A stretch of DNA of 7,960 nucleotides from a virus (taxonomy: Monodnaviria; Loebvirae; Hofneiviricota; Faserviricetes; Tubulavirales; Inoviridae). Below, one piece after another: positions 1 to 3,000 of the stretch; position 1 is the first letter of the stretch; every line of letters starts with the position of its first letter. Where the stretch lies: the IMG/VR virus record IMGVR_UViG_2529292905_000001. One strand, 5' to 3'. A program made the position numbers.

Positions 1-3000
1 GTGCTCATTTGCACGCGGTTTGCCAGCTTGAGTCTTCAACGCTGGGAAGATGCGGCAAACGGCAAATCGGCATACCAGCCAGCCTATATCCGTCATGCAC
101 AGGCCAATTATGAAAGAGGAGAAGCTTAAGTTCTGGAATCCTGAACGAATAACGACTACCGGAAAATCACTTCGTATCACTCAGATACGATTTAACATAA
201 TATACATTATGCGCACCAATGGTAAGGATGGCAGAATCTGGCGGGAATCGTTGACACTGGCCGTCAACTGGCTACTATCGACAGTGATTCAAAATCATCC
301 GTTTCTCCAAACGAATCAGAATCAAATGTCTGTCAGCAGTAAGTGAACGGCCTGACCTCACCAATCAGGCCTGTTCATCCAGTTAGTTGGTAAATCTGTA
401 CCTGATACACGAGAATCAAACACCACTTCTTCAGTGCCATCACCATGATGCCGGATAATCTGGTAACCGGATTGCGGGTTCTGGCTCTCAGCTTCATAAG
501 CAGCCCGGAATGCTGGATCTTTGAGAAGCATCACTTTCAGCTCCTGATGTGTCATGAATTTTTCCATGATAAGCCCCGATGAATGCTGCCGCGCCGAATC
601 AGCCATAACGCTGAAAATGGAAACTGTACGGCTTGGCCAACCCCGGACAGCAACAAAACAAGTTTTGTCACTGACCGGCGTTATCTTTCAAAACAGACAG
701 TTAACGATTTTTTGTCTGGTGTTTATGCGTGAAATTTCGTGCGTACGAAATTCACCACCAATAAACAAACGGACGATGACTGACCGGAAAAGCAATGCCG
801 TCAGCATCATGACCACGCATTACCTGATTGAGAAGCCTTCTGACTTCACGGCGCTCAGGCCTGGTCATCATCATATTGCGATACCAGGACGGCGATTTAT
901 CAAACCATCTGGCACAACTGGCAAAATGTGAACCTACACGACGATAAGACTTAAGGTGGCCACCGGGAAGTCGGTCACGCGCCTTATTTTTTACAGACAT
1001 AATAAATCCTCTAAGTAACTGAATACCTAGAAGATGTCGTACTGTTCATACCCCATAAAAGTTAACGCCATAATAAAAATCCATACAATCAGTTCAGGTT
1101 GTCCCGGAACAGTTCACCGCTCCTCGCGGCGCTGCGGGGCGTCGCCCTGCTCCGGTCAACCTTTCTGACCTGAAGCATCACCATAATATCAGTCTTGTTG
1201 CTTTCACTGGTACGGGAACCGAAGAAGCTCCAGCCGGAACTGGCCTTACTGTCTTTCTGTTCAGCAAGGCCACCAAGTAAAATAATATCACCATCTGCAA
1301 GGCTGACTTCGGTTGTTACATCACGCTTGATAAGGGTTGGCGAGTTATTGACGCCGGTTTCAGTGGTCACAAAGTTGGAAAGCTGCTGCTGAATCTTGAG
1401 ATCCATTGTCCGACTTTTGATTGATGGCGTCACGTTAAACAAAACACCGCTGGAACGATATTCAACGGATTGCGTGGTCGTATTGTTATTCACCGTAACA
1501 CTGCCCAGTACTGGCACATCAGAGCCGACTGAAAAAGACGCTGAGGCATTATTTTTTACCCGCAGTCGTGGCGCACTGACAACAGTAAAACGACTGTCGG
1601 TTTTCAGCAGATTGAAAATGGCATCAATGGAGCCGGTTCGAATATTGATAAAATTATCCAGTCCGGCAGCACCAACTGAAATATTGAATTTATCAGACAG
1701 AATTTTAGCCGCTAAAAGAATGCCGGAGCCGTCAGACTGCGAGGTCTGAACCTCAAAAACATAACCAGAAACAACCACTTCATCACTCATCGTATCCAGC
1801 GAAGTGACCAGTGTTTTCAGGATGGCGATATCCTCTTTCGTACCATAATAAACCAGAATATCACCGGTTCGATTGATGTAGTTGCTTGCCCCTGATGAAC
1901 CTTTTAGCGAATCGTCAGAAATCACGGCTCCACTGTTATTGAAGGAGCCTGAAACGTAGCCGCCAAGAATATCAGACAGGTAGGCAACAGAACGGTACTG
2001 AGGCGTATAAGTCCATGTAAAACGTGGCTTAACCGGCTCTTTCGGCGTATAGGGCGCGATAAAATCAACACCCTTTTTCGTCCATATTCGAATGTTCATA
2101 TTGCCAAGATAACGGGTTACAAATTCCCGTTCATCAATATCAGGTGTTAACCTGAATGTAATCATTCGTTCATCATTAACAAGCTGTGGATCTAGCATAT
2201 ACGGGACTTTAAGCACCTCACTGTAAATAAGAGAAATAGCCTCCGGTAGCTTGACTTTATTTAATTCAAGCTCTGCCCCTGCGAAAGCACATGAAGAAAA
2301 TAGTAGCGTTAATGCGAGTGAAATCTTTTTCATTATTTTTTCCCCGTATAAAGCGTCACACGCTCACCATCAATAATTCCGCTCATCAACATCCCTTTGT
2401 AATTAAAACTGGATGCAGGAACGGCACGCAAAACACCGGCACTGTTAACAAGAATCACAAACGCCCTGCCTTCACTGGTCATTCTCCCTGATATACGCCA
2501 CTCGGTTGAAAGTGGCGGTTCAGCTGGTTCTGAGGGAGTATCTGGTGCTGGAGTAGCAGCGGAAGAACGAAACATGGCCGCATCACGTACATCTGTTGTA
2601 GCCAAATCTGGCGAGGGATCGCTTCGGCCAAACGTGCTGAAAAATGAGTAAATCAGCCAGCCTGACCCGATAAACATCAATGGAAAAAGCACAAGAAAGA
2701 ACCTGACTTTGCCAGAATTCCAGATGCTCTGGCGTTTATCTGTCTGCTTTTCATTACCGTTATTTCCTTCATAGCTTTTGTAAAGTTCAAAAATATCAGG
2801 GTTATATTTATTGCGATAACTGGTGACGAGGTTGCTTTTATAGATTTTGTGGCCTGAATATACGTCAATGCAGTAATGATTATTCAGGCCCAACGCTTTC
2901 AGCTTGCGCATCCGGTAAGTTGTTTCTATTTTGTCTTTCAGAAAGCGAGCAATATTAGAAAGTGACTGATTTACAATAACCAAATCACAGCTAATACCCG

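What the first reader, a model, noticed from the sequence alone, without database searches (positions are those of the whole stretch)
358..606. Second cargo ORF; N-terminal segment loosely recalls antitoxin-type regulators
This 65-82-aa minus-strand ORF is the last gene before dif. The segment ..HQELKVMLLKDPAFRAAYEAE.. resembles, from memory only, N-terminal stretches seen in some XRE/HigA-like antitoxin or regulator proteins, but no HTH follows, so this is weak. Together with the upstream basic ORF it could form an addiction or defence pair, although the 145-bp gap argues against a classic overlapping toxin-antitoxin operon.
Basis: inference. Interest (0 to 1): 0.55.

Follow-up and report, generated by a model that had tools for sequence, protein, structure and literature searches.

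The report
Orphan antitoxin-like gene beside dif
The last gene of this dif-integrated filamentous prophage is a real, conserved 69-residue protein whose front end matches the toxin-facing end of a common antitoxin type; it has no DNA-binding domain and no toxin gene nearby, so it most likely disarms such toxins made elsewhere in the cell.

Summary
A minus-strand ORF at 358-606 is the last gene before an exact E. coli dif (190-217) in a CUS-1/YpfPhi-type inovirus prophage. The conserved start is ATG 567, giving 69 aa; RefSeq aa. It is a real gene: median dN/dS is 0.18, and it matches PHROG 6642 (unknown function). By position it is YPO2281.

It matches nothing in Pfam, NCBIfam, PADLOC or PDB and has no fold match. 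However, residues 1-30 are homologous to the segment before the HTH in XRE antitoxins that sit directly downstream of Gp49 (PF05973, HigB/RelE-ParE-type) toxins (hhalign 98.4%). Three sequence subtypes of this segment recur in both protein classes. A conserved beta-hairpin replaces the HTH.

No Gp49-like gene lies in any locus carrying the gene. The basic neighbour (752-1000) is an independent family and is not Gp49-like.

The family is narrow and confined to Enterobacterales. It occurs in the variable region next to a Xer site in at least three inovirus backbones, in phage-less dif flanks and on small plasmids.

Best reading (inferred, about 0.4): a stand-alone mini-antitoxin that neutralises Gp49/HigB-type toxins in trans. 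Such toxin-antitoxin pairs are on 3,647 PLSDB plasmids. A toxin-antitoxin pair with the neighbouring ORF is not supported.

The parts
358..567 (-). Coding sequence of the 69-aa protein (called ORF69 here; PHROG 6642; RefSeq WP_001298440.1 is called from ATG 555; YPO2281 by position). Stop codon at 358-360.
484..567 (-). N-module, residues 1-28 (M-EKF-MTHQELKVMLLKDPAFRAAYEAES), predicted helices 7-14 and 18-28. Homologous to the pre-HTH N-terminus of antitoxins paired with Gp49/HigB toxins.
   Evidence: hhalign A5 vs A6: 98.4%, E 4.8e-15. A5 vs the IncFIA plasmid antitoxin: 95.4%, E 2e-8. BLASTP comparisons. AlphaFold2 model.
412..465 (-). The most conserved part of the family, residues 35-52 (YQIIRHHGDGTEEVVFDS). 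It is a predicted beta-hairpin that stands where the antitoxins have their HTH.
   Evidence: Invariant columns in A2; strands 36-40 and 46-51; no HTH in Pfam.
361..411 (-). Variable C-terminal tail, residues 53-69, predicted disordered.
   Evidence: Alignments A1, A2 and A5; pLDDT below 50 for residues 57-69.
574..600 (-). 5' leader: GGGG ribosome-binding site at 577-574 and the conserved stretch GATTCGGCGCGGCAGCATTC at 600-581. This stretch is kept even in phage-less chromosomal copies. Its role is unknown (promoter, operator or leader).
   Evidence: Alignment A3; sequence.
218..357 (-). Non-coding spacer between the stop codon and the XerC arm. It is 140 nt here, 38 nt in Pectobacterium and Brenneria, and 3 nt on small plasmids.
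190..217 (-). dif (attR): GGTGCGCATAA-TGTATA-TTATGTTAAAT. The XerC arm faces the gene.
   Evidence: Exact match, none expected by chance.
607..751 (-). Intergenic gap holding two hairpins on the coding (+ssDNA) strand: 729-755, which spans the stop codon of the upstream ORF, and 639-682. The second is conserved in the Pectobacterium and Brenneria phages.
   Evidence: Folded as ssDNA: -29.8 kcal/mol, z = -3.33; alignment A3.
752..1000 (-). Neighbouring basic 82-aa ORF (called ORF82b here; pI 11.3). It is an independent family and not a partner of ORF69.

Best explanation
ORF69 (358-567, minus strand) is a functional small acidic cytoplasmic protein (69 aa, pI 5.15). It is accessory cargo in the variable region between the secretin gene and the Xer site (attP/dif) of a CTX-type, dif-integrating filamentous phage.

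In evolutionary terms it is an HTH-less derivative of the HigA/Ata-type antitoxins that partner Gp49 (PF05973; HigB / RelE-ParE superfamily) toxins. It keeps their N-terminal two-helix module and replaces the DNA-binding HTH with a family-specific beta-hairpin. No cognate toxin is encoded nearby.

The most likely mechanism is that the N-module binds Gp49/HigB-type toxins made elsewhere in the cell. Sources would include the very common plasmid addiction modules and prophage or chromosomal toxin-antitoxin defence modules. Binding would neutralise those toxins in trans without repressing their operon. That would protect the phage, plasmid or host from post-segregational killing or abortive infection, as an anti-addiction or anti-defence decoy.

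Shown here: the gene is real, its anatomy, the family's distribution, the homology of the N-module, and the absence of both an HTH and a linked toxin. Inferred: toxin binding and its biological role.
For: - Real gene under purifying selection and a member of PHROG 6642 (E 1.1e-53).
- N-module homology. hhalign of the family against five antitoxins gives 98.4%, E 4.8e-15. Against an independently retrieved IncFIA plasmid antitoxin (WP_000780220.1) it gives 95.4%, E 2e-8. The Xenorhabdus family member P0041 is 58% identical over 36 aa to a HigA-type antitoxin. The window protein is 68% identical over 22 aa to another.
- Those antitoxins begin their HTH_3 domain at residues 34-50, and the ORF upstream of each one tested is Gp49/PF05973. 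Every HTH-bearing locus with this N-module that has readable upstream sequence has a Gp49 toxin directly upstream.
- Three N-module subtypes each occur in both HTH antitoxins and HTH-less family members. That is expected if the module determines partner specificity.
- The closest solved relative of this toxin-antitoxin type is S. pneumoniae HigBA, 6AF3/6AF4. There, the HigA elements before the HTH, beta1-alpha1-alpha2, form the toxin interface (PMC7984235). AlphaFold2 gives ORF69 the same order of elements: helices 7-14 and 18-28.
- Potential targets are abundant in the same hosts. The Gp49 plus N-module-antitoxin pair is on 3,647 of 72,556 PLSDB plasmids, mostly Klebsiella and Escherichia.
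- There is precedent: phages carry orphan antitoxin-like proteins that neutralise DarTG1 (PMC11825919).
Against: - No experiment or co-folding shows that ORF69 binds any toxin.
- The homologous stretch is only about 28-30 residues.
- Most of the antitoxins used for comparison were retrieved with a pattern taken from that same stretch, so their selection was biased. Partial controls are the second antitoxin subtype in L068-L070 and the plasmid antitoxin found through full-length homology.
- No solved antitoxin carries this N-module by sequence. Its role as the toxin interface therefore rests on positional analogy with 6AF4.
- The best-conserved part of ORF69 is the beta-hairpin, not the N-module. 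The hairpin's function is unknown, and it has no fold match.
- About one in eight E. coli carriers has an in-frame deletion of residues 10-40. The gene is therefore dispensable for keeping the prophage.
- The tight linkage to Xer sites is not explained by this model, except as a consequence of a cargo hot spot.
Confidence: 0.4

Rival explanations
1. ORF69 is accessory cargo with some other, still unknown function, such as a host-fitness factor or a small regulator or binder of a non-toxin partner. The shared N-terminal helices would then be a reused helical module with no toxin-related role.
For: - There is no family or fold match for the whole protein.
- It sits where ctxAB sits in CTXPhi, and the review of YpfPhi lists it as having no predictable function (PMC4266046).
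- The family-specific beta-hairpin is the most conserved part.
- Similar short helical motifs turn up by chance in unrelated proteins, for example nitrile hydratase.
Against: The N-module similarity is well above motif level: 58% over 36 aa, hhalign 95-98%, and three parallel subtypes. In HTH-bearing proteins the module was found only next to Gp49 toxins.
Confidence: 0.3
2. ORF69 is a Xer-recombination accessory or regulator. It would modulate XerCD action at attP/dif or at plasmid psi/cer-type sites, affecting integration, excision, multimer resolution or exclusion of competing dif-integrating elements. In role it would resemble XafT of TLCPhi.
For: - Every chromosomal or prophage locus examined has the gene within about 40-1,900 nt of dif. 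It points at the XerC arm in all but one (L014).
- On small plasmids the stop codon lies 3 nt before a psi-like Xer site in all eight contigs.
- Intact copies persist beside dif without any phage (L003, L009, L011, L013, L014, L076).
- In Vibrio inoviruses the gene next to attP is often xafT (PMC12715192).
Against: - It has no DUF3653 or HTH and no similarity to XafT-type proteins.
- This phage's attP is CTX-type, with two inverted dif-like sites that fold in ssDNA. From established knowledge of CTXPhi, that type integrates through XerC alone and needs no activator.
- The distance to the site is variable: 3 nt to 1.9 kb, inverted in L014, and downstream of the site in L078.
- The region is a general cargo hot spot (PMC12715192). 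dif-proximal fragments are also the expected survivors of prophage decay; the truncated remnants L010 and L015 show this.
Confidence: 0.12
3. One reading: ORF82b (752-1000, basic) and ORF69 (acidic) form a toxin-first, HigBA-like addiction or defence pair.
For: - The gene order, with a basic protein upstream and an antitoxin-like acidic protein downstream, mimics higBA.
- The two co-occur in CUS-1-type phages and, with other ORFs in between, in Xenorhabdus inoviruses.
Against: - Each occurs without the other in many loci.
- A 145-nt gap with hairpins separates them, so there is no overlap or translational coupling.
- ORF82b is not Gp49-like (hhalign 0.1%) and has no significant toxin-antitoxin or defence hit.
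- The AlphaFold2 model of ORF82b is poor (pLDDT 52).
Confidence: 0.07
4. ORF69 is a decaying remnant of a higA gene with no function of its own.
For: - Truncated or internally deleted copies exist (L010, L015, the 93-nt deletion variant).
- The HTH has been lost.
Against: - dN/dS is about 0.18 across genera.
- The beta-hairpin that replaces the HTH holds most of the invariant residues.
- The start codon and ribosome-binding site are conserved.
Confidence: 0.05

Closest known systems
HigA/Ata-type XRE antitoxins of Gp49 (PF05973; HigB, Tad, RelE/ParE-family) toxin-antitoxin modules. Examples: IncFIA plasmid pair WP_000493287.1/WP_000780220.1; phage N15 gp49/gp48; S. pneumoniae HigBA (PDB 6AF4).
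   Same: They share a homologous N-terminal module of about 30 residues (M-K-x-x-T-H-x-E-L-x3-L-K-D-P-E-F-R-A-A-Y-E-A-E), predicted as two helices. The same three subtypes occur in both groups. Both are small acidic proteins.
   Different: ORF69 has no HTH_3 DNA-binding domain; a beta-hairpin takes its place. It has no adjacent toxin gene and so cannot autoregulate an operon. It is always found in Xer-site-linked elements.
Phage-borne orphan antitoxin-like counter-defence proteins, for example the T4-like phage proteins that neutralise DarTG1 (PMC11825919). T4 Dmd against RnlA/LsoA is a further example from my own knowledge.
   Same: A stand-alone, antitoxin-derived or antitoxin-mimicking protein carried on a mobile element, with no cognate toxin.
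   Different: Those proteins are experimentally shown, are enzymes or unrelated folds, and sit on lytic tailed phages. ORF69 is untested and sits on temperate inoviruses and small plasmids.
[quoted passage not shown]
   Same: The position is the same, between the secretion/assembly genes and attR/dif. The content varies between related phages. The attP is CTX-type, with two inverted sites.
   Different: The gene is different. ORF69 also occurs on plasmids and in phage-less dif flanks.
XafT (DUF3653), the Xer activation factor of TLCPhi (PMC6744903, PMC9226527).
   Same: A small protein encoded next to the attP of a dif-integrating element.
   Different: There is no sequence or domain similarity. 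This phage's attP is CTX-type, which does not need XerD activation.
YPO2280a/YPO2281 of YpfPhi and their CUS-1 homologues.
   Same: This is the same gene, 97-100% identical (L006).
   Different: Nothing differs. The literature gives it no function (PMC4266046).

Membership tests
PHROG 6642 (phage protein family of unknown function) | Full-length match to the 69-position profile | tested here: met
   E 1.1e-53, profile positions 1-69 against residues 14-82 of the 82-aa form.
HigA/Ata-type antitoxin of Gp49 (PF05973) toxin-antitoxin modules | N-terminal module before the HTH, shared by antitoxins of Gp49 toxins | tested here: met
   hhalign 98.4% and 95.4% against an annotated plasmid antitoxin; BLASTP comparisons.
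HigA/Ata-type antitoxin of Gp49 (PF05973) toxin-antitoxin modules | XRE-type HTH DNA-binding domain (HTH_3 / HTH_31) | tested here: not met
   No Pfam hit at E<=10 and no NCBIfam hit. AlphaFold2 predicts a beta-hairpin at residues 36-51.
HigA/Ata-type antitoxin of Gp49 (PF05973) toxin-antitoxin modules | Cognate Gp49/RelE-fold toxin gene immediately upstream, overlapping or co-transcribed | tested here: not met
   tblastn with three Gp49 toxins finds none in the window or in any ORF69 locus. The upstream ORF82b is not Gp49-like.
HigA/Ata-type antitoxin of Gp49 (PF05973) toxin-antitoxin modules | Binds and neutralises the toxin | not testable with these tools
   Needs co-expression rescue, pull-down or multimer structure prediction.
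Type II toxin-antitoxin pair formed with ORF 752-1000 | Obligate co-occurrence and operon coupling of the two genes | tested here: not met
   Each gene occurs without the other. A 145-nt gap with hairpins separates them.
Known anti-phage defence systems (PADLOC-DB) | Match to a defence-system protein model | tested here: not met
   No hit for ORF69. ORF82b gives only a weak JetB hit (E 0.0039, 13.9 bits).
XafT / DUF3653 Xer activation factors | DUF3653 / HTH domain | tested here: not met
   No Pfam hit at E<=10.
XafT / DUF3653 Xer activation factors | Encoded next to the attP of a dif-integrating element | tested here: met
   It is the last gene before dif here and lies in the dif-proximal region in all prophage loci.
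CUS-1/YpfPhi inovirus (CTX-type IMEX) accessory genes | Lies between the secretin gene and attR/dif of a prophage with a CTX-type attP (two inverted dif-like sites) | tested here: met
   Gene order. Tandem junction GGTGCGCATAA-TGTACGACTCG-TTATGTTGAAA plus inverted GGTTCGCACAA-TGACG-TTATGCTAAAG.

The most novel reading that the evidence does not exclude
The ORF69 family would be a previously unrecognised class of HTH-less mini-antitoxins that travel with Xer recombination sites: inovirus attP, chromosomal dif flanks and psi-like sites of small plasmids. Their N-modules would track the specificity subtypes of Gp49/HigB toxin-antitoxin modules. Xer-exploiting elements would then carry a portable anti-addiction or anti-defence decoy against the commonest plasmid toxin-antitoxin family in Enterobacterales. 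The even tighter reading is that the gene also has a direct role at the Xer site, because on small plasmids it occupies exactly the place of the cer/psi accessory sequences.
Probability: 0.25. Interest if true: 0.75.

Novelty: new variant of a known kind. Interest (0 to 1): 0.5.

Why it matters
CUS-1 and YpfPhi are the filamentous prophages of invasive E. coli K1/B2 clones and of pandemic Yersinia pestis. They give a modest in vivo fitness advantage, and the 2014 review of YpfPhi (PMC4266046) names the unknown ORFs at the prophage ends as the key open question.

This analysis turns one of those ORFs from "no predictable function" into a specific, cheap hypothesis to test. The hypothesis is that it is an antitoxin-derived protein lacking the DNA-binding domain that could neutralise Gp49/HigB-type toxins, which are carried by thousands of Enterobacterales plasmids.

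If that is true, it would add a toxin-decoy strategy to filamentous phages and small plasmids. It would also bear on how mobile elements compete inside clinical strains, through plasmid addiction, exclusion and displacement.

The analysis also shows that the suggested toxin-antitoxin pair with the neighbouring ORF is unlikely, so effort need not go there first.

Tried and rejected
- **Family searches.** Pfam, NCBIfam and PADLOC scans of both ORFs gave nothing significant.
- **Library-wide HMMER.** A profile search of 1.84 billion representatives found only 35 hits. The large multi-repeat hits (for example P0047) are beta-propeller repeats that share a hairpin-like motif, so I judged them convergent.
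- **Non-coding readings.** Rfam found nothing in 1-1200. The sigma-70 scan found no promoter for the gene on the minus strand. I rejected a purely DNA-level element (attP accessory, origin or packaging signal), because substitutions concentrate at third codon positions.
- **ORF82b.** The AlphaFold2 model was too poor to use (pLDDT 52).
- **Mini-IMEX idea for phage-less copies.** No attL-like site lies within 10 kb upstream in L003, L009, L011, L012, L013 or L014. L076 does keep an attL and is an internal-deletion derivative. L010 and L015 are truncated remnants. Prophage decay explains at least some of these copies.
- **Upstream ORF in L078.** A 113-aa ORF directly upstream of the divergent homologue looked like a toxin candidate. 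It is AT-rich promoter-like sequence with no Pfam hit, so I rejected it.
- **N-module in solved structures.** A search of PDB sequences with the N-module alone found no solved antitoxin carrying it.
- A 32-aa profile was too short for the word-indexed protein search. The padded 43-column profile returned only proteins of 77 aa or fewer; those inspected were family members, truncated XRE fragments or other short proteins carrying the N-module motif.
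Full report
**Setting**

The window is a CUS-1/YpfPhi-type filamentous (inovirus) prophage. All of the following genes are on the minus strand (RefSeq annotation):
- secretin, 1089-2333
- Zot/pI, 2333-3358
- DUF2523, 3362-3649
- pIII, 3662-5374
- major coat protein, 5439-5672
- G5P ssDNA-binding protein, 5961-6278
- pII replication protein, 6290-7342

A plus-strand XRE repressor lies at 7514-7960.

An exact E. coli dif (GGTGCGCATAATGTATATTATGTTAAAT) lies at 190-217 on the minus strand, with none expected by chance. In complete E. coli genomes the element forms tandem copies. The junction between copies carries a CTX-type attP, made of GGTGCGCATAA-TGTACGACTCG-TTATGTTGAAA and an inverted GGTTCGCACAA-TGACG-TTATGCTAAAG.

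The review of YpfPhi states that the two ORFs next to attR, YPO2280a and YPO2281, have no predictable function and sit where CTXPhi carries ctxAB (PMC4266046). By position the finding is YPO2281. The Y. pestis copy is 97% identical (L006).

Yes. The ORF 358-606 (-) exists. Three lines of evidence place the true start at ATG 567, giving 69 aa:
- All homologues begin M-(K/E)-K-(F/L) there.
- A GGGG ribosome-binding site lies 6 nt upstream.
- The upstream in-frame extension is not conserved as coding sequence.

PGAP aa, from ATG 555.

The protein matches PHROG 6642 end to end (E 1.1e-53). In every pair of homologues, third-position changes dominate; for example the counts are 7/6/27 for L003 against L014. 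Nei-Gojobori dN/dS has a median of 0.18 over the 39 pairs with a finite ratio. It is therefore a protein-coding gene under purifying selection, not a DNA element or a chance ORF.

The protein is acidic (pI 5.15). AlphaFold2 with a 9-sequence alignment gives pLDDT 72.6, with helices 7-14 and 18-28, strands 36-40 and 46-51, and a disordered tail at 57-69.

**What it is not**

- No Pfam, NCBIfam or PADLOC family matches at E<=10.
- The PDB sequence search finds no relative.
- Rfam finds nothing.
- Full HMMER against 1.84 billion representative proteins finds only 35 hits. Nearly all are proteins of 50-95 aa. The family is narrow, and every member traced to a named organism is from Enterobacterales.

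**Where the family lives**

I examined chromosomal and prophage loci from Escherichia, Yersinia, Klebsiella, Pectobacterium, Brenneria, Pantoea, Erwinia and Xenorhabdus. In all of them the gene lies near dif (about 40-1,900 nt). It points at the XerC arm in all but one, L014, where dif is inverted.

It occurs in at least three different inovirus backbones:
- the CUS-1 type
- a Xenorhabdus type with a Phage_GPA replication protein (L072, L074)
- an Ff-like type (L075, L077)

In each it lies between the secretin gene and attP.

Intact copies also sit beside dif with no phage present (L003/L008, L009/L004, L011, L013, L014, L012). A 1.45-kb mini-element keeps attL, two left-end ORFs, the gene and dif (L076). 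Truncated remnants exist too (L010, L015).

On small Morganellaceae plasmids and plasmid-like contigs, a psi-like Xer site begins 3 nt after the stop codon. This holds in eight of eight contigs, which represent about two lineages, and includes a qnrD1 plasmid. An example is GCTTCGTATAA-GACCCA-TTATGTAAAAT. Calling these sites psi-like rests on my memory of the pSC101 psi sequence.

In E. coli, 118 of 5,426 complete genomes carry the region. Some, including NC101, NGF1 and SCU-484, have a gapped match covering 76-77% of the region. An in-frame 93-nt deletion of residues 10-40, seen in metagenome and viral contigs L043, L044 and L067, most likely accounts for it.

**The neighbour is not a partner**

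ORF82b (752-1000, pI 11.3) belongs to a broader family with a fixed length of 82 aa. It follows the secretin gene in Salmonella, Morganella and Xenorhabdus inoviruses that have three different types of replication protein. It also stands alone next to dif in Pantoea. In the Salmonella, Morganella and Pantoea loci there is no ORF69.

Conversely, ORF69 occurs without ORF82b on plasmids, in the Ff-like phage and in most phage-less copies. The 145-nt gap between them holds two hairpins, with z = -3.33 when folded as ssDNA. One of these hairpins is conserved across genera.

ORF82b has no significant family hit, and hhalign against Gp49 toxins gives a probability of 0.1%. A classic toxin-antitoxin pair is therefore not supported.

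**The lead that held up**

Pattern scans of metagenomes and viral contigs, made with the family alignment, also returned XRE-HTH proteins. Their first 25-30 residues resemble the family. In these proteins HTH_3 begins at residues 34-50, and the overlapping upstream ORFs that were tested are all Gp49 (PF05973, DUF891). Every such locus with readable upstream sequence has a Gp49 toxin directly upstream.

Profile-profile comparison of the ORF69 family (A5) with five of these antitoxins (A6) gives 98.4% probability, E 4.8e-15. The pairwise comparisons are:
- Xenorhabdus member P0041 against a HigA-type antitoxin: 58% identity over 36 aa.
- The window protein against another antitoxin: 68% over 22 aa.
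- Divergent members P0048 and P0040 against a second antitoxin subtype that was not retrieved by the pattern: E 6e-9 and 3e-6.

Three N-module subtypes are thus each present in both HTH antitoxins and HTH-less family members.

As a control free of the pattern bias, I searched plasmids with one full-length antitoxin. It has homologues about 70% identical on 3,647 of 72,556 PLSDB plasmids (Klebsiella 2,728; Escherichia 431). These are annotated as an HTH regulator next to a RelE/ParE-family toxin. One example is on IncFIA plasmid pEC1897-13: WP_000780220.1, with the Gp49 toxin WP_000493287.1. It aligns to the ORF69 family over its first 30 residues at 95.4%, E 2e-8.

**From anatomy to mechanism (inference)**

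The only solved relative of these Gp49 toxins is S. pneumoniae HigB, 6AF3/6AF4, and its HigA matches the HTH part of these antitoxins. In that complex the HigA elements before the HTH, beta1 (6-9), alpha1 (10-17) and alpha2 (20-42), make the toxin interface. Alpha3 and alpha4 form the HTH (PMC7984235).

ORF69 has the same order of elements, helices 7-14 and 18-28, and then a beta-hairpin instead of an HTH. The simplest reading is a mini-antitoxin that keeps the toxin-binding end and has lost operator binding. Because no Gp49-like gene is linked to it, it would act in trans on toxins encoded by plasmids, prophages or the chromosome. Orphan antitoxin-like proteins used by phages against toxin-antitoxin defence have a precedent (PMC11825919).

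The weak points are these:
- No binding has been shown.
- The homologous stretch is short.
- No solved antitoxin carries this N-module by sequence.
- The most conserved element, the hairpin, is unexplained.
- The gene is dispensable in some E. coli lineages.

**The Xer linkage**

Part of the linkage is expected. The region next to attP is a cargo hot spot in inoviruses (PMC12715192). Fragments next to dif are also the last to be lost when an irreversibly integrated CTX-type prophage decays; L010, L015 and L076 show such decay.

Two observations remain unexplained. First, the left edge of homology in the five phage-less copies L003, L009, L011, L013 and L014 falls within about 50 nt upstream of the start codon. 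Second, on small plasmids the gene abuts the XerC arm, where cer/psi sites keep their accessory sequences. I therefore keep a Xer-related role as a minor rival (0.12). Against it are the lack of any XafT-like domain and the CTX-type attP, which does not need an activator.

**Verdict**

The gene itself is already known as a hypothetical protein (YPO2281, PHROG 6642).

What is new is its identification as an HTH-less, toxin-less derivative of Gp49-partner antitoxins that travels with Xer sites. That makes it a new variant of a known kind.

Confidence is about 0.85 for the anatomy and homology and about 0.4 for the trans-neutralisation mechanism. Interest is 0.5, because a long-standing "unknown ORF" of the plague and K1 filamentous phages becomes directly testable.

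Noticed in passing
window 752-1000 (-); L016, L018, L020, L021, L072, L074, L079: ORF82b is a highly conserved, very basic family with a fixed length of 82 aa (mean column identity 80%). It follows the secretin gene in dif-integrated inoviruses with three different Rep types (Phage_CRI, Rep_trans, Phage_GPA). It also stands alone next to dif in Pantoea. It has no family hit and its AlphaFold2 model is poor (pLDDT 52). It may belong to a shared attP-proximal module.
   Followed up: partly
window 607-751 (hairpins at 729-755 and 639-682, minus strand): The 145-nt gap folds, as ssDNA of the coding strand, into two hairpins (z = -3.33). The second (CCGGTCAGTGACAAAAC...GTTGCTGTCCGG) is conserved in the Pectobacterium and Brenneria phages. 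It is a candidate packaging signal, minus-strand origin or terminator.
   Followed up: partly
L002 18023-18116 (tandem junction); attL sites at L006 1609-1702, L005 705-735, L016 1585-1678: The attP is CTX-type: a dif-like site with an 11-nt central region, plus a second inverted site about 35 nt away. The two can pair in the (+) ssDNA. The window itself holds only the regenerated dif.
   Followed up: partly
L076 6904-8383: A 1.45-kb mini-element bounded by a CTX-type attL (two inverted sites) and dif. It keeps only two left-end ORFs and the ORF69 homologue. It is an internal-deletion derivative of the Ff-like prophage seen in L075 and L077.
   Followed up: partly
L010 9796-10160 (Erwinia psidii): A remnant in which a deletion joins the 3' part of the phage repressor gene, on the opposite strand, to the middle of the ORF69 homologue. 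The homologue is also frame-disrupted.
   Followed up: partly
window 447-539 equivalent; L043, L044, L067; probably E. coli NC101, NGF1, SCU-484 (H42-H45): An in-frame 93-nt deletion removes residues 10-40 (MEKFMTHQE|HGDGTEE). About one in eight E. coli carriers shows a matching gapped alignment, and in those genomes the ORF is not annotated.
   Followed up: partly
L023 1482-1695; L025 361-571; L024 185-416 and 760-787; L040-L042, L045, L046: Small Morganella and Proteus plasmids, including the qnrD1 plasmid p3M-2B, carry the homologue with a psi-like Xer site starting 3 nt after the stop codon. In L025 the gene overlaps the stop of an upstream MobC-like gene annotated 'mobA'. In L046 a weak inverted Xer-like site also lies upstream, which recalls pdif modules.
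   Followed up: partly
L068 (IMG/VR contig, 20 kb fetched): Six Gp49-type toxin genes lie within 20 kb. Five of them have a downstream XRE antitoxin ORF, of two N-module subtypes. The arrangement looks like an array or integron.
   Followed up: no
P0039, P0045-P0047: The hairpin motif YQIIRHHDDGTEEVVFDS weakly matches the repeated FxVVRYNxDGxLDxSFD units of large beta-propeller-type repeat proteins. I judged this convergent.
   Followed up: partly
window 1-189: The chromosomal flank left of dif differs between carrier strains. It is a fimbrial chaperone gene in H1-type strains and LysR/SDR pseudogenes in F11. The prophage is therefore found in more than one dif neighbourhood.
   Followed up: no
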